Of a stretch of DNA of 53,384 nucleotides, positions 1,554 through 53,384 are shown piece after piece. The DNA is taken from the sequence record PV340554; one strand, given 5' to 3'. Every line of letters starts with the position of its first letter. Positions within the stretch are counted from its first letter, which is position 1. The stretch comes from Escherichia phage PhiR12_5. The position numbers were made by a program, and so were the translations under genes. The notes below the pieces were generated by a model. That model searched no databases. It saw nothing but the letters and a program-made list of their open reading frames with translations, and was not told where the DNA came from.

Positions 1554-1580
1554 TGGTGGAGCTGGCGGGAGTTGAACCCG
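1554..1580. other. attL core: 27-bp copy of the ssrA 3' end (TGGTGGAGCTGGCGGGAGTTGAACCCG)
   Basis: Exact direct repeat of 53356..53382; matches reverse complement of tmRNA 3' end ...GCGGGTTCAACTCCCGCCAGCTCCACCA; flanking bases diverge from ssrA after the core. Confidence 0.8.
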
Positions 1581-1638
1581 TATCCGAAAAATTCTTAACC
1601 AATTGAATGTTAATGATTTTTCTAATTTAAAATACCTC

Positions 1639-1658
1639 ACGTGCATTTTACGTGCATA
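1639..1658. repeat. 20-bp att-proximal direct repeat CACGTGCATTTTACGTGCAT (copy 1), candidate integrase arm-type site
   Basis: Identical 20-mer at 53244..53263; both copies lie on the phage side of the att cores. Confidence 0.4.
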
Positions 1659-1846
1659 TTGTAGTACCTCTAACGTCCTGATTCTGTCCAACATTTTGAA
1701 GTGTTTAGGCGCCACTGGGGCGGTGATTAGCACTGTTTTGTGCTGTTCATAGCACTTCAAGACTATTCAATTCAGAGCAATCGTTGAAGAATTACCCGTA
1801 AGGTAATATCATACTATTTAGATAACTGCGGTTATCACCATCAAGG

Positions 1847-1881
1847 GCCACTGATGACGCTGTTATCATCAGTGGCTTTTT
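1847..1881 (+). terminator. Rho-independent terminator
   Basis: Hairpin gccactgatga / tcatcagtggc followed by TTTTT. Confidence 0.45.
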
Positions 1882-1923
1882 GTACCTTCACTGCACAGCC
1901 AGTGAAGTGTTGAGGAGACTAGC

Positions 1924-2265
1924 ATGAGAACAGTAGCGAGAAGATCGATACAGACGATTGAGCGTCGGACTCAACTCGTCAGTTCTTTTGTTGACTCAAA
2001 CACAGCAAACGAGTTCTTCGTGAGAAGACTGAGTGATCGAGTCTCCCCGGCACGTCAGCTGTTTATTGTGACATTGAACAATGAGGTTCGTGACGGTGAC
2101 GTGATCCCGTTTGCTGAGATCGCCATGAACAAAGAAAAATTGCGCTATGTTGTGAAGCCAGCAGATCAGTATCCTCAGTATGTAAGCAGTAATCTGCTGA
2201 AGAAAATTGAAGCGGCAATTGCTCTATACATGCAGAAGAACTACAGGGAAATTAACTACCATTAA
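1924..2265 (+). CDS. Hypothetical protein (cargo gene between attL and int)
   Basis: 113-aa ORF with GAGGAG RBS 7 nt upstream; no family recognised. Confidence 0.5.
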   Translation: MRTVARRSIQTIERRTQLVSSFVDSNTANEFFVRRLSDRVSPARQLFIVTLNNEVRDGDVIPFAEIAMNKEKLRYVVKPADQYPQYVSSNLLKKIEAAIALYMQKNYREINYH

Positions 2266-2276
2266 AAGGTTGCTGA

Positions 2277-2477
2277 ATGGCTCCTGCGTTAATACCTTCA
2301 TATAACAAGGACTTGAACATCACGCCATTTGGCGAAAAACGTCTTATTGAGTCATTCTATTTTTTCACTGCCGAGGCTGGCTTACTGAGGGCTGATGAGT
2401 ACATTGTCAGTTCTGGTGAGTTTCAGTACTACTTGGATGTGTATCAACTGGGATGTTCCACCGACGACTTTTTTTAG
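2277..2477 (+). CDS. Hypothetical protein; possibly the N-terminal part of a longer gene interrupted at a T7 tract
   Basis: 66-aa ORF ending in a run of seven T (2469..2475); one extra T would fuse it in frame with the downstream ORF. Confidence 0.35.
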   Translation: MAPALIPSYNKDLNITPFGEKRLIESFYFFTAEAGLLRADEYIVSSGEFQYYLDVYQLGCSTDDFF

Positions 2478-2512
2478 ACTATGGCAGTGACCTTCTTGAT
2501 TCGAAGGTTCCA

Positions 2513-3043
2513 ATGCAGGATCTGGTCAATACCCTCTTAGGTCTTGATATGGTAGACGATAACAAAACGATAAGAATAGGTCGTATACAGTTCAACGACT
2601 TTAATTTTATCGAAGAGAACGGTCAGATGATGACCGGAAAGCAAGTGAAAAGCGCTGTTATCGCACAGGATTTCCAATCAGCAGGTTTGGCGCGTGAGAT
2701 CTATAAAATGCTTGCGCGAAAGCATGAGTTTCTCATCTGCGATAACATTCAAAGTATTGCCGGTGGTGCTCTTTGGGCCAGTAGCATCATTCGAATTGCC
2801 GAGGTACGGATCTACAATTCACGCACGAAGAAATTTATGGACATACTTGGTCCAGGTGCGCGTGGTGTTTCAGGTACTTTGCCATGGAGTGCGAATGATC
2901 TGTCTGTAGATGAGATTGTTCGCTGGGGTCGTGCGTATGATGATGAAAACTGTTGTCGTCACATTGTACATGTTATCTGTAAGGACCGACTCATTGACGA
3001 GCAATTTCATGATTATGTTTCGATAGGTGGCGCGACAGAATAA
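2513..3043 (+). CDS. Hypothetical protein (cargo gene between attL and int)
   Basis: ORF 2453..3043; internal ATG at 2513 has GAAGGT RBS; no family recognised; followed by terminator. Confidence 0.45.
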   Translation: MQDLVNTLLGLDMVDDNKTIRIGRIQFNDFNFIEENGQMMTGKQVKSAVIAQDFQSAGLAREIYKMLARKHEFLICDNIQSIAGGALWASSIIRIAEVRIYNSRTKKFMDILGPGARGVSGTLPWSANDLSVDEIVRWGRAYDDENCCRHIVHVICKDRLIDEQFHDYVSIGGATE

Positions 3044-3049
3044 CCATCA

Positions 3050-3078
3050 AAAAGACCCGGCATTTGCCGGGTTTTTTC
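3050..3078. terminator. Bidirectional Rho-independent terminator between the cargo operon and int
   Basis: cccgg-catttg-ccggg hairpin flanked by A-run and T-run. Confidence 0.6.
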
Positions 3079-3084
3079 TTCAAA

Positions 3085-52117: not shown

Positions 52118-52148
52118 CATGGGGCATAAAAAACAGGAAGGTGCTGCG

Positions 52149-52622
52149 ATGAAGGTGATTCTGGCGACCAGGAACCGCTATCTGGAGTATGGTCTGCAGG
52201 CGTTACTGAAGGAACACAGTGTGATACTGGCGAGGGAGTTTTTCCTGCCGGAGAACCGCCGTTATATCCCGGACTTTGACGAATCCTGGCTGATAATCAG
52301 TGATGGCCTGCTGGGCAGGCTGATGCGCTGTATGTTCCAGGGGCGTCATTTTCTGCAACTGGATGCGGAGTTGCTCCGTGATGGTGAGCAGATAAGTGAT
52401 GCCATACACAACGGCGTCTGGACGTATAACAGTGCTGCCCGCCCGCTGACGATGTCAGAGATGGTGGTGATGTTCGGTTATGTCTACCGCCAGTCGAGAC
52501 CCTGTCGCCTTGCCAGTGAAATGGGTATTCACACGAAGACGGTGAATACCTTTCTGTATACGGGAATGGCGAAAAACGGGCTGTATGGTGTGAGCGTGAA
52601 ACATCTTGCGTGTGCGGAGTGA
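52149..52622 (+). CDS. Putative transcriptional regulator (LuxR-type HTH-like C-terminus)
   Basis: 158 aa from MKVILATRNRYLEYGL...; C-terminal LTMSEMVVMFGYVYRQS...IHTKTVNTFLYTGMAKNG resembles an HTH; AGGAAGG RBS. Confidence 0.4.
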   Translation: MKVILATRNRYLEYGLQALLKEHSVILAREFFLPENRRYIPDFDESWLIISDGLLGRLMRCMFQGRHFLQLDAELLRDGEQISDAIHNGVWTYNSAARPLTMSEMVVMFGYVYRQSRPCRLASEMGIHTKTVNTFLYTGMAKNGLYGVSVKHLACAE

Positions 52623-52668
52623 TTCAGTGTTACCGGACCTGCAGCGTCTTCAGGTGATTCAGGGGCAG

Positions 52669-52800
52669 ATGATGAATAAAGACAAATGCCGTATGTACGG
52701 GAGAAAACGTTATACAGCGGGAGCAATGTGCTTCATGCTGTTTGTGTGGCTGGGTGGTGTGGTGACACTCTGTGCCGTTGCTGCAATTATCATGCAATAA
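52669..52800 (+). CDS. Small membrane protein (start uncertain)
   Basis: ORF 52606..52800 with hydrophobic C-terminus. Confidence 0.25.
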   Translation: MMNKDKCRMYGRKRYTAGAMCFMLFVWLGGVVTLCAVAAIIMQ

Positions 52801-52836
52801 AAAATGGGGAGTAAGTTAACTCCCCGTAAAGAAGAT

Positions 52837-53085
52837 TTACCGAATAAACCAGTCGTCCGCGGTTTCCCAGACTTCCTTCAGCGTTTCCTGAACGAACTTT
52901 TGAGCAGACTCTTTATCCACGGATCTTAAAATTGTCAGTCCATCATTGCTGGCAGATTTTACGATCACATCTACATCATCATAACGTTTACTGACACGTC
53001 GCAGCATCTCTTGCTGCAGGGCAGGAACAGAACCGGTTGGCATTTTAGTCATTTTCTCTTTGGCTATGCAGATTTCAATACGCAT
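52837..53085 (-). CDS. dinI: DinI-family (DNA damage-inducible protein I-like) protein
   Basis: 82 aa [11 protein letters not shown]...[11 protein letters not shown], similar to DinI; preceded by two LexA boxes. Confidence 0.8.
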
Positions 53086-53100
53086 AAAAATCCCTCTACA

Positions 53101-53116
53101 CTGTGTTTGTATACAG
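53101..53116. promoter_or_regulatory. LexA (SOS) box 1, CTGT-N8-ACAG
   Basis: CTGTGTTTGTATACAG upstream of the dinI-like gene. Confidence 0.6.
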
Positions 53117-53128
53117 TGTTATTTTTAA

Positions 53129-53144
53129 CTGTATGGATAAACAG
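53129..53144. promoter_or_regulatory. LexA (SOS) box 2, CTGT-N8-ACAG
   Basis: CTGTATGGATAAACAG upstream of the dinI-like gene. Confidence 0.55.
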
Positions 53145-53243
53145 TATCAAGGAGAAGGAACGCCAAGAGGTGATGTGTTTTTGTTACTATTAGTTACAAA
53201 CAGAAAAAAACCAGACCGTGAGATCCGGGGGGCTTTTAAAGTG

Positions 53244-53263
53244 CACGTGCATTTTACGTGCAT
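53244..53263. repeat. 20-bp att-proximal direct repeat CACGTGCATTTTACGTGCAT (copy 2)
   Basis: Identical to 1639..1658. Confidence 0.4.
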
Positions 53264-53355
53264 TTTTTTGTCTTTTCTCGGTCTGCGCTCTGTCTGGTCA
53301 GAGTCCGTAAGTGGCTGTTTTTATTGCCGCTGTCCGGTTGCAGTCCTATCAAAAG

Positions 53356-53384
53356 TGGTGGAGCTGGCGGGAGTTGAACCCGCG
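53356..53384 (-). ncRNA. ssrA: tmRNA (ssrA) 3' end, partial (gene continues beyond window); contains attR core 53356..53382
   Basis: Reverse complement matches the tmRNA 3' terminus ...CGCGGGTTCAACTCCCGCCAGCTCCACCA. Confidence 0.8.

What the first reader, a model, noticed from the sequence alone, without database searches (positions are those of the whole stretch)
1554..53382. Complete lambdoid prophage integrated at the ssrA 3' end, bounded by 27-bp att cores
Identical 27-bp sequences at 1554..1580 and 53356..53382 match the tmRNA 3' terminus; the right copy continues into ssrA, the left copy is followed by diverged sequence. Between them is a full lambdoid gene set with cos, so the element looks potentially inducible apart from the J frameshift.
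Basis: partly seen in the sequence, partly recalled or inferred. Interest (0 to 1): 0.5.

Follow-up and report, generated by a model that had tools for sequence, protein, structure and literature searches.

The report
Lambda-like prophage inserted at ssrA
This is an ordinary lambda-type prophage of 51.8 kb sitting in the 3' end of the tmRNA gene (ssrA) of an E. coli C-type chromosome; the insertion site, the phage family and a near-identical deposited phage are already known.

Summary
An exact 27-bp direct repeat lies at 1554-1580 and 53356-53382, with no third copy. It is the reverse complement of the last 27 nt of tmRNA (T-arm, acceptor strand, ACCA).

The interpretation also holds. Window 1-1580 is 100% identical to E. 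coli C, where the same flank joins intact ssrA directly, giving an isogenic empty attB. The two prophage ends are contiguous next to a 90%-identical integrase in free phage LMessi, which supports the reconstructed attP.

Between the cores lies one colinear lambda-type genome:
- int and xis
- N, cI, cro, cII, O, P, nin region, Q
- lysis genes
- lambda-identical cos
- Nu1 to J, and tail fibres

Positions 1565-45000 match GenBank phage PhiR12_1 with no substitutions.

The J defect is real in this sequence. One G is missing at 47234, and restoring it gives a full 1176-aa J. Both indels unique to the window are homopolymer-length changes, and the host is a laboratory indicator strain. A sequencing error or a post-lysogeny mutation therefore cannot be separated.

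The left flank is a second, decayed ssrA island: a P4-type integrase stub cut by ISSen4.

Verdict: already known, low interest.

The parts
1..1113 (-). Flank: partial IS3-family element ISSen4. It runs off the left end of the window and is inserted into the resident island's integrase gene.
   Evidence: 100% identical to ISSen4 copies, of which E. coli C has 20. IS1222-type frameshift element at 695-812. PGAP annotation of E. coli C.
1112..1387 (-). Flank: N-terminal stub of a P4/CP4-57-type integrase belonging to an older ssrA island.
   Evidence: Pfam Arm-DNA-bind_3, E 7.5e-23. Annotated as a pseudogene in E. coli C. An intact 409-aa version sits next to ssrA in K_EC180, O103:H2 and contig L018.
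1488..1520 (-). Native ssrA terminator hairpin, now displaced 51.8 kb from the gene.
   Evidence: G+C-rich hairpin plus T-run. Lies directly downstream of ssrA in E. coli C.
1554..1580 (.). att core copy distal to ssrA. This is the int-proximal junction, and it holds the displaced 3' end of ssrA.
1638..1657 (+). P' arm: 20-bp CACGTGCATTTTACGTGCAT, i.e. two ACGTGCA units 11 bp apart. Candidate arm-type Int binding sites.
   Evidence: Direct repeat of 53244-53263. ACGTGCA occurs 6 times in the window, 5 of them in these two sites. Position and spacing are kept in LMessi attP. Function is inferred.
1924..3043 (+). Cargo ORFs between the P' arm and int: 1924-2265, and 2277-3043. The second is split here.
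   Evidence: No Pfam or PADLOC hit. It is a single 255-aa ORF in NCTC9112 and most other contigs. Absent from LMessi.
3085..4263 (-). Integrase: a tyrosine recombinase with an arm-binding domain.
   Evidence: Pfam Arm-DNA-bind_2 (3e-21) and Phage_integrase (2e-19). The identical protein is indexed in 394 blocks of the assembly collection.
4218..4427 (-). Excisionase.
   Evidence: phrog_2917 excisionase, E 2.5e-41.
4586..10857 (-). Early-left region: ea-type genes, Abc2-like anti-RecBCD, Bet-like recombinase and N (10408-10857).
   Evidence: Annotation of the sequence-identical PhiR12_1. N matches phrog_271, E 6.7e-40.
11258..12283 (-). 341-aa ORF of unknown function between N and cI.
   Evidence: phrog_6191, unknown function. 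No Pfam or PADLOC hit.
12364..13071 (-). CI repressor (HTH plus S24 autopeptidase).
   Evidence: Pfam Peptidase_S24 4.4e-16 and HTH_3.
13150..15874 (+). cro, cII, O, P, ren.
   Evidence: PHROG hits for Cro, O-like and P-like proteins. PhiR12_1 annotation.
17041..17996 (+). isrK and C4 RNAs followed by an antirepressor gene (17283-17996), within the nin region.
   Evidence: Rfam RF01394 and RF01695. phrog_377 Ant.
19442..19960 (+). Late antiterminator Q.
   Evidence: phrog_943, E 3.7e-93.
20292..22703 (+). STnc100 RNA and a SASA/DUF1737 esterase (NanS-p type) in the position where stx sits in Stx phages. No stx genes.
   Evidence: Rfam RF02076. Pfam SASA, DUF1737 and DUF6645. No + strand ORF of 70 aa or more in 19960-20720.
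23429..25965 (+). Lysis cassette: holin, endolysin, Rz spanin.
   Evidence: phrog_9876/20, phrog_7 and phrog_13.
26333..26344 (+). cos cohesive-end sequence GGGCGGCGACCT. The flanking bases closely resemble my recollection of lambda cosN.
   Evidence: Lies 184 bp upstream of Nu1.
26528..34462 (+). Packaging and head genes: Nu1, A, W, B, C/Nu3, D, E, FI, FII.
   Evidence: PHROG hits for the small and large terminase subunits, portal, protease and major head protein. PhiR12_1 annotation.
34478..40628 (+). Tail genes Z, U, V, G, T, H, M, L.
   Evidence: phrog_41 major tail protein and phrog_24 tape measure protein. PhiR12_1 annotation.
40685..42697 (.). P22 immI-like block inserted between L and K: ClpP-like protease(-), Arc(-), sar RNA(-), Ant(+).
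   Evidence: Pfam CLP_protease. Rfam sar. phrog_245 Ant. NCTC9112 annotation. Absent from PhiR12_2 and PhiR12_2_star.
42752..44067 (+). Tail tip genes K and I.
   Evidence: Annotation of PhiR12_1 and NCTC9112.
44322..47851 (+). Tail tip / host-specificity gene J. One G is missing at 47234, so the reading frame stops at 47246. The C-terminal 205 aa continue in another frame.
   Evidence: phrog_31 central tail fiber J.
48034..50185 (+). Side tail fibre with collagen-like repeats, and a DUF4376 tail-fibre assembly-like gene (49604-50185). The latter is intact here but interrupted by IS21 in all four PhiR12 records.
50981..52060 (+). YadA-anchor (Eib-like) outer-membrane protein gene. Cargo.
   Evidence: Pfam YadA_anchor, 1e-15.
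52837..53085 (-). dinI-like gene, the last gene before the P arm.
   Evidence: Annotations.
53211..53228 (-). Terminator-like hairpin plus T7, 128 nt downstream of the ssrA 3' end in the lysogen. Inferred replacement terminator.
   Evidence: Function is inferred.
53244..53263 (+). P arm copy of the 20-bp ACGTGCA-N4-ACGTGCA repeat.
   Evidence: Largely conserved in CP-1639 and LMessi.
53356..53382 (.). att core copy joined to the ssrA body. 53356-53384 on the minus strand is the last 29 nt of tmRNA.

Best explanation
The interval is a single lambda-type temperate siphophage genome with a unit length of 51,802 bp. It was inserted by its own tyrosine integrase into the 3' end of ssrA in an E. coli C-lineage chromosome.

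How insertion works. The phage attP carries a copy of the last 27 nt of tmRNA: 4 of the 5 nt of the T-stem 5' strand, the T-loop, the T-stem 3' strand, the acceptor 3' strand and ACCA. This copy is followed by a diverged ssrA-like stretch. Recombination within this 27-bp identity rebuilt an unchanged ssrA at the right junction (53356 onward). It left the displaced original 3' end and its terminator at the left junction (1554-1580 and 1488-1520).

Inferred steps.
- The crossover is probably in the 7-nt T-loop, flanked by the CGGG/CCCG stem halves acting as core-type Int sites.
- The paired ACGTGCA repeats at 53244 and 1638 are probably arm-type sites for the Int N-terminal domain.
- The hairpin at 53228-53211 probably terminates ssrA transcription in the lysogen.

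Expected behaviour. With Xis, a CI carrying an S24 autopeptidase domain, O/P replication genes, Q, a lysis cassette, lambda-type cos and a full Nu1-to-J morphogenesis set, the element should be SOS-inducible. It should also be able to excise, replicate, package and lyse.

The J defect. As sequenced, J lacks one G at 47234 and loses its C-terminal ~200 aa, which in lambda J hold the receptor-binding part (my own knowledge). Particles made from this exact sequence should therefore be non-infectious or very poorly infectious.

The locus is a tandem array. To the left of the prophage lies the stub of an older P4-type ssrA island, inactivated by ISSen4.
For: Repeat: exact, and only two copies.

Core identity: it equals the last 27 nt of tmRNA and maps onto the T-arm, acceptor strand and CCA.

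Isogenic empty attB: window 1-1580 has 0 mismatches to E. coli C, where the flank joins intact ssrA. The same holds for C122 and NCTC122. At least 80% of the synthetic attB is present in 967 of 5426 genomes.

attP: the reconstructed P arm, core and P' arm are contiguous in phage LMessi, directly beside a 90%-identical int.

Same phage type at ssrA elsewhere: NCTC9112 and CP-1639, plus the PhiR12 records, whose ends run into ssrA sequence.

Near-identity to a deposited phage: window 1565-45000 differs from PhiR12_1 only by one A in an A-run.

Gene set: Int and Xis; CI; N, Cro, O, P, Q, lysis, terminase, portal, protease, capsid, tail, tape measure and J; cos.

J: a single missing G, and restoring it gives a 1176-aa protein that is 1166/1177 identical to an intact J.
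Against: - The ssrA body is not in the window. Only 29 nt are present.
- No read, PCR or induction data exist for this element.
- The exact crossover point, the arm-site role of the ACGTGCA repeats and the replacement terminator are all inferences.
- The PhiR12 GenBank records are cut att-to-att from lysogens. I found no paper describing them, so their infectivity rests on the host field of the record.
- A J-defective phage sitting in a laboratory indicator strain is awkward. Either the frameshift arose after lysogeny, or it is an assembly error, or entry was helped in trans.
- At 51.8 kb the genome is about 107% of lambda, near the upper packaging limit known for lambda (my own knowledge).
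Confidence: 0.9

Rival explanations
1. The prophage is fully functional, and the J frameshift is a sequencing or assembly artefact (a homopolymer miscount). The true sequence would encode an intact 1176-aa J.
For: - The host background is E. coli C, a prophage-poor indicator strain whose reference genomes have an empty ssrA site. The phage must therefore have arrived by infection, which requires a working tail tip.
- Both indels unique to the window, relative to its nearest relatives, are homopolymer-length changes. One is A7 to A8 at 20490-20497; the other is G2 to G1 next to a C5 run at 47234.
- J has no other defect. It is 1166/1177 aa identical to an intact allele after one base is added.
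- All five related J genes examined have GG at this position.
Against: - The assembly otherwise looks clean. There are 0 differences in 1580 nt against E. coli C, and 0 substitutions in 43 kb against PhiR12_1.
- A two-base run is a weak error hotspot.
- J is not under selection in a lysogen, so a genuine post-lysogeny mutation is equally easy.
Confidence: 0.4
2. The element is a cryptic remnant fixed in the chromosome that can no longer excise or produce particles, like CP-1639 or CP4-57.
For: - J is frameshifted and one cargo ORF is split.
- Lambdoid prophages at ssrA are often decayed. CP-1639 has lost int and carries several IS629 copies. int deletions at ssrA have been reported in O145:H28 (PMC7067040).
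Against: - int, xis, both att arms, cI, O, P, Q, the lysis genes, cos and every morphogenesis gene other than J are intact. They are sequence-identical to PhiR12_1, a phage deposited from MG1655.
- There is no IS inside the element.
- Its presence in E. coli C, against an empty site in the reference genomes, implies very recent acquisition.
Confidence: 0.05
3. The 51.8-kb interval is a composite of two or more elements inserted one after another at ssrA, and the outer repeats bound the array rather than one phage.
For: - ssrA does collect tandem elements. Here a P4-type island stub lies immediately to the left, and the same arrangement is seen in O103:H2 and CP-1639.
- The interior is mosaic relative to its relatives. 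The immI block is present or absent, and the J/tail-fibre patch at 45.8-49.7 kb differs.
Against: - There is no third copy of the core or its inner 17 nt, even with 3 mismatches allowed.
- There is only one integrase gene and one cos inside.
- The gene order is that of a single lambda genome and is colinear with PhiR12_1 end to end.
- The two ends are joined in LMessi attP.
- The mosaicism is the usual lambdoid module exchange.
Confidence: 0.03

Closest known systems
Escherichia phage PhiR12_1 (GenBank PV340549.1; siblings PhiR12_2, PhiR12_2_star, PhiR12_4)
   Same: - Window 1565-45000 is identical apart from one A in an A-run.
- Overall identity is 99.75% over 47 kb.
- Same int, xis, att arms, immunity region, cos, head and tail genes.
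- The records are bounded by the same core and run into ssrA.
   Different: - All four PhiR12 records have an intact 3531-nt J and an IS21-family element in the tail-fibre assembly gene.
- The window lacks the IS.
- The window carries a different allele over about 45.8-49.7 kb (103 mismatches).
- The window has the 1-nt deletion in J.
ssrA prophage of E. coli NCTC9112 (NZ_LR134079.1, 1282289-1336647)
   Same: - Same core, same int end (100% identical over 1553-4400) and same dinI/P-arm end.
- ssrA is annotated directly after the right core.
- The late region is 97-99% identical.
   Different: - Different early/immunity/replication modules (RecT, another N, a LexA-type repressor, a DnaB-type helicase).
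- ISEc12 is inserted in gene I.
- The left flank is ypjA rather than an integrase stub.
Cryptic Stx1 prophage CP-1639 (AJ304858.2) and other Stx phages that use ssrA
   Same: - A lambdoid prophage downstream of ssrA in the same orientation (dinI end next to ssrA).
- A homologous P arm that includes the GTGCACGTGCATTT motif.
- Followed by a remnant P4-type integrative element.
- ssrA is listed as an established Stx-phage site (PMC8065619).
   Different: - CP-1639 carries stx1 and several IS629 copies.
- No prophage integrase is annotated at its distal end, which is occupied by IS629.
- The window element has no stx and has intact int and xis.
Escherichia phage LMessi (PP925823.1)
   Same: - Carries the uninterrupted attP: P arm, the same 27-bp core and P' arm, about 88% identical.
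- This lies beside an integrase that is 90% identical.
   Different: - It is a 37-kb phage with an otherwise different genome.
- There are no cargo ORFs between attP and int.
- The P' arm repeats read AGTGCA rather than CGTGCA.
Phage lambda / phage 21
   Same: - Same gene order, and the 12-nt cos sequence I recall for lambda (GGGCGGCGACCT).
- Nu1-to-J morphogenesis genes are about 84% identical to phage 21.
   Different: - Different integrase family and att site (by my own knowledge, lambda uses attB between gal and bio, and phage 21 uses icd).
- Extra antirepressor modules and extra cargo genes.

Membership tests
Lambdoid (lambda-type) temperate siphophage | Lambda gene order: int-xis, early left, N, cI/cro, cII, O, P, nin, Q, lysis, cos, head, tail. 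| tested here: met
   PHROG and Pfam hits in the expected order. Colinear with the annotated PhiR12_1.
Lambdoid (lambda-type) temperate siphophage | cos site with a lambda-type 12-nt cohesive end upstream of Nu1/A terminase. | tested here: met
   GGGCGGCGACCT at 26333 in flanking sequence that closely resembles lambda cos as I recall it. Nu1 and A match the terminase PHROGs.
Lambdoid (lambda-type) temperate siphophage | SOS-cleavable CI-type repressor divergent from cro. | tested here: met
   HTH plus Peptidase_S24 at 12364-13071(-). A Cro-like gene at 13150-13377(+). Cleavage itself was not tested.
Lambdoid (lambda-type) temperate siphophage | Intact tail tip protein J, needed for infectious particles. 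| tested here: not met
   One G is missing at 47234, giving a stop at 47246. This bears on viability, not on family membership.
Tyrosine-integrase elements that target the 3' part of tRNA/tmRNA genes (T-loop sublocation) | Tyrosine recombinase catalytic domain plus an arm-binding N-terminal domain, with an adjacent excisionase. | tested here: met
   Arm-DNA-bind_2 plus Phage_integrase. phrog_2917 excisionase.
Tyrosine-integrase elements that target the 3' part of tRNA/tmRNA genes (T-loop sublocation) | attP identity block running from the T-arm to the 3' end of the gene, so that the gene is rebuilt after insertion. | tested here: met
   The 27 nt comprise CGGG, UUCAACU, CCCGC, CAGCUCC and ACCA on the Rfam tmRNA structure. 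The right junction reproduces the ssrA 3' end exactly.
Tyrosine-integrase elements that target the 3' part of tRNA/tmRNA genes (T-loop sublocation) | Strand exchange within the 7-nt loop, between the stem halves. | not testable with these tools
   attL, attR, attB and the reconstructed attP are identical over all 27 bp, so the crossover point cannot be narrowed.
Tyrosine-integrase elements that target the 3' part of tRNA/tmRNA genes (T-loop sublocation) | Empty attB and contiguous attP exist. | tested here: met
   attB is seen in E. coli C, C122 and NCTC122. An attP homologue is seen in LMessi. Excision products of this particular element were not observed.
Stx-converting phage | stxA and stxB between Q and the lysis genes. 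| tested here: not met
   There is no + strand ORF of 70 aa or more in 19960-20720. The next ORF is a SASA/DUF1737 esterase. CP-1639 has stx1AB at the equivalent place.
P4/CP4-57-type ssrA integrative island (left flank only) | Intact P4-type integrase next to the ssrA 3' end. | tested here: not met
   Only the Arm-DNA-bind_3 N-terminal stub remains (1112-1387), cut by ISSen4.

The most novel reading that the evidence does not exclude
The J frameshift is genuine and was already present when the phage entered E. coli C. In that case a J-truncated lambdoid genome spread in one of two ways.

1. It borrowed tails from a co-induced related prophage (phenotypic mixing).
2. Low-level -1 ribosomal slippage on the C CCC CCG run restored enough full-length J for the few copies each virion needs.

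A related idea concerns the sibling genomes (the window, PhiR12_1, _2, _2_star and _4). They would then be recombinants that keep reshuffling the J/tail-fibre region. Their size differences (IS21, the immI block) may reflect pressure from a roughly 52-kb packaging ceiling.
Probability: 0.1. Interest if true: 0.4.

Novelty: already known. Interest (0 to 1): 0.12.

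Why it matters
It matters little beyond annotation. ssrA is a long-established attachment site for lambdoid and P4-type elements, and a phage identical over 43 kb is already in GenBank.

The practical points are these:
- The window comes from an E. coli C-type lysogen, so an isogenic empty site is available as a control.
- The att boundaries are defined to the base. A reconstructed attP is supported by a free phage genome.
- The single-base J defect should be resequenced before the prophage is called defective.
- The locus shows how ssrA accumulates tandem islands while the tmRNA gene stays intact.

Tried and rejected
- **tRNA/tmRNA and Rfam scans of the window.** No tmRNA was found because only 29 nt of ssrA are inside the window. 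Resolved by comparison with K-12, NCTC9112 and E. coli C.
- **Source genome.** No complete E. coli genome covers 1-4400. The exact truncated J and the tail-fibre protein are not on record in the assembly collection. The DUF4376 protein led only to unrelated NCTC prophages.
- **Paper for the PhiR12 phages.** Searches by name, by accession and by ECOR / E. coli C terms found nothing relevant.
- **Free-phage record spanning attP with high identity.** The PhiR12 records are cut at att, so they do not span it. LMessi does span it, at about 88% identity.
- **Defence-system annotation of cargo genes.** There were no PADLOC hits.
- **Composite-element hypothesis.** Rejected because there are no internal att copies.
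- **Coordinate errors.** Two of my own coordinate mistakes (the J start, and the xis and cargo frames) were caught and corrected.

Full report
**1. Observation**

The sequence TGGTGGAGCTGGCGGGAGTTGAACCCG is present at 1554-1580 and 53356-53382 on the same strand. Allowing 3 mismatches gives no further copy, and 100 dinucleotide-preserving shuffles gave none. The inner 17 nt also occur only at these two places. The repeat finder returns the pair with a spacing of 51,802 bp. The neighbouring bases differ on both sides, so the identity is exactly 27 bp.

The right copy plus the last two bases of the window equals the reverse complement of the final 29 nt of ssrA in K-12, NCTC9112 and E. coli C. 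ssrA therefore lies on the minus strand, with its body just outside the right end of the window. This is why ARAGORN and Rfam see no tmRNA in the window.

On the Rfam tmRNA alignment of the E. coli C gene, the 27 nt are as follows:
- four of the five bases of the T-stem 5' strand (CGGG)
- the T-loop (UUCAACU)
- the T-stem 3' strand (CCCGC)
- the acceptor 3' strand (CAGCUCC)
- ACCA

**2. Empty site and host background**

The decisive control turned up by chance. Window 1-1113 is ISSen4, an IS3-family element with 20 copies in E. coli C. A query across the IS junction then found E. coli C, C122 and NCTC122. Window 1-1580 has zero mismatches to CP020543.1. In that genome the same ISSen4, integrase stub, terminator and 27 nt continue directly into intact ssrA, smpB, ratA and so on.

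The window is therefore an E. coli C-lineage chromosome that has gained 51,802 bp exactly at the ssrA 3' end. More generally, a synthetic attB built from the left flank plus ssrA is at least 80% covered in 967 of 5426 complete E. coli genomes, at up to 99.7% identity (example K_EC180).

**3. attP**

Joining the right end of the prophage to its left end gives a putative attP. The deposited PhiR12 phage records cannot confirm it, because they are cut att-to-att and run into ssrA. Phage LMessi can. It contains the P arm, the same 27-bp core and the P' arm as one uninterrupted stretch of about 88% identity. This stretch lies directly beside an integrase that is 90% identical to the one in the window.

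In attP the core is followed by TATCCGAAAAATTC, a diverged copy of the ssrA body (CGTCCGAAATTCC). So the phage carries a decayed, longer ssrA 3' fragment, of which only the last 27 nt are kept identical.

Two copies of a 20-bp sequence, CACGTGCATTTTACGTGCAT, flank the core in attP. Each holds two ACGTGCA units 11 bp apart. One copy is at 53244-53263, 112 bp before the core, and the other is at 1638-1657, 58 bp after it. ACGTGCA occurs six times in the whole window, five of them at these two sites. The motif pairs keep their place and spacing in CP-1639 and LMessi, with small changes. Because the integrase has an arm-binding domain, I read them as arm-type sites. This is an inference.

**4. The element**

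Most of the interior is sequence-identical to PhiR12_1, so its annotation supplies the gene map. Window 1565-45000 differs from PhiR12_1 only by one A in an A-run, and identity is 99.75% over 47 kb. I checked key genes independently:

| Gene or feature | Coordinates | Evidence |
|---|---|---|
| Int | 3085-4263(-) | Arm-DNA-bind_2 + Phage_integrase |
| Xis | 4218-4427(-) | phrog_2917 |
| N | 10408-10857(-) | phrog_271 |
| CI | 12364-13071(-) | HTH + Peptidase_S24 |
| Cro | 13150-13377 | phrog_35 |
| O | 13984-14889 | phrog_277 (O-like) |
| P | 14886-15587 | phrog_109 (P-like) |
| Q | 19442-19960 | phrog_943 |
| Lysis: holin, endolysin, Rz | 23429-25965 | phrog_9876/20, 7, 13 |
| Nu1, A, portal, protease/scaffold, major capsid | within 26528-33681 | PHROG hits |
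| Major tail protein | 35411-36157 | phrog_41 |
| Tape measure protein | 37031-39604 | phrog_24 |
| J | 44322 onward | phrog_31 |

The 12-nt cohesive-end sequence GGGCGGCGACCT sits at 26333, in flanking sequence that closely resembles lambda cos as I recall it, 184 bp upstream of Nu1. There are no stx genes. The stx position holds the STnc100 RNA and a SASA/DUF1737 esterase.

Only one integrase, one cos and no internal att copy are present. The composite reading is therefore rejected.

**5. J**

Against PhiR12_1, the window shows a cluster of substitutions between about 45.8 and 49.7 kb and one uncompensated 1-nt gap at 47234. Against the closest intact allele (strain 2012EL-2448, 98.6% over the J gene), the missing G is the only indel.

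Translation confirms the effect. The reading frame gives ...GGNPPHSP and then a stop at 47246, while the normal continuation AFSLTPDGRLTARNADISG... runs in another frame to 47851.

Whether it is real in the cell is open. Points in favour of an artefact or a very recent event:
- All five related J genes I hold have GG at this position.
- The only other indel unique to the window is A7 to A8 in a terminator A-run. Both indels are homopolymer-length changes.
- The host is a laboratory indicator strain that must have been infected.

Points in favour of a true mutation:
- The assembly has no other difference from E. coli C over 1580 nt.
- There are no substitutions against PhiR12_1 over 43 kb.

**6. 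Mechanism (shown and inferred)**

Shown:
- Insertion within a 27-bp identity that reconstitutes ssrA.
- The presence of Int, Xis, both att arms and a complete lytic programme apart from J.

Inferred from established knowledge of tRNA/tmRNA-targeting tyrosine integrases (my own knowledge of K. P. Williams's work on sublocation classes; not re-read here):
- Strand exchange occurs in the 7-nt T-loop, between the CGGG/CCCG stem halves.
- Arm-site binding occurs at the ACGTGCA pairs.

Also inferred: the minus-strand hairpin with a T7 run at 53228-53211 replaces the native terminator at 1520-1488, which is now 51.8 kb away.

**7. Context**

To the left of the prophage lies the stub of a P4/CP4-57-type integrase (Arm-DNA-bind_3), cut by ISSen4. 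In other strains the same gene is intact and sits next to ssrA. The locus is thus a tandem array: ssrA, then the lambdoid prophage, then the remnant island. The same arrangement is annotated for the Stx1 prophage CP-1639 and is seen in O103:H2 PV16-126.

ssrA is listed among the established Stx-phage integration sites (PMC8065619). Decay of ssrA prophages has been described in O145:H28 (PMC7067040). The identical Int protein is indexed in 394 blocks of the assembly collection, with various left flanks.

**8. Verdict**

The element is an ordinary member of a known phage group at a known site, and a near-identical genome has already been deposited. Novelty: already known. Interest: low.

The only loose end worth a bench check is the single-base J defect in a lysogen of an indicator strain.

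Noticed in passing
window 1-1553: The left flank is 100% identical to E. coli C (CP020543.1). It consists of ISSen4 inserted in a P4-type integrase stub next to ssrA. The window therefore comes from an E. coli C-lineage lysogen rather than a wild isolate, and ssrA carries a tandem array.
   Followed up: yes
window 17041-17996 and 40685-42697: There are two separate antirepressor modules with antisense RNAs. The first is isrK plus C4 RNAs ahead of ant, in the nin region. The second is a P22 immI-like block (ClpP-like protease, Arc, sar RNA, Ant) wedged between tail genes L and K. This block is absent from PhiR12_2 and PhiR12_2_star.
   Followed up: partly
window 17682-18039 and 42383-42740: The two ant genes share a direct repeat of 300-358 bp at 98-99% identity, 24.7 kb apart. 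Recombination between the copies would delete Q, the lysis genes, cos, and the head and most tail genes.
   Followed up: no
window 45800-49697: All four PhiR12 records differ from the window in the same way over the J 3' half and the tail-fibre gene (103 mismatches). The patch ends at the point where they carry an IS21-family insertion. The 8-bp overlap at 49690-49697 looks like the target duplication. The window therefore has the IS-free allele and is a sibling, not a descendant, of the deposited phages.
   Followed up: partly
window 20490-20497: The A-run in the terminator after STnc100 is A8 here, A7 in PhiR12_1, PhiR12_2 and CP-1639, and A6 in NCTC9112. This is the only difference from PhiR12_1 in the first 43 kb.
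   Followed up: yes
window 50981-52060: ORF of 359 aa with a YadA-type membrane anchor (an Eib-like trimeric autotransporter), carried as late-region cargo. The neighbouring dinI region matches the P-EibC fragment from ECOR-9.
   Followed up: partly
window 11258-12283 (-): A 341-aa ORF sits between N and cI, in the slot where lambda has rexAB. Its function is unknown (phrog_6191), and there are no Pfam or PADLOC hits.
   Followed up: partly
window 1924-3043: Two cargo ORFs with no family hits lie between the P' arm and int. The second is split here and in PhiR12_1 but is a single 255-aa ORF in NCTC9112 and most other contigs. LMessi has no cargo at this position.
   Followed up: partly
window 48438-49283: Eight degenerate copies of a 39-nt Gly-X-Y (collagen-like) repeat lie in the side tail-fibre gene. 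Length variation here explains the alignment gaps against relatives.
   Followed up: no
whole element, 1554-53382: The unit length of 51,802 bp is about 107% of lambda, and PhiR12_1 with IS21 is 54.4 kb. The sibling genomes differ by loss of IS21 or of the immI block, which might reflect a packaging-size constraint. This is speculation.
   Followed up: no
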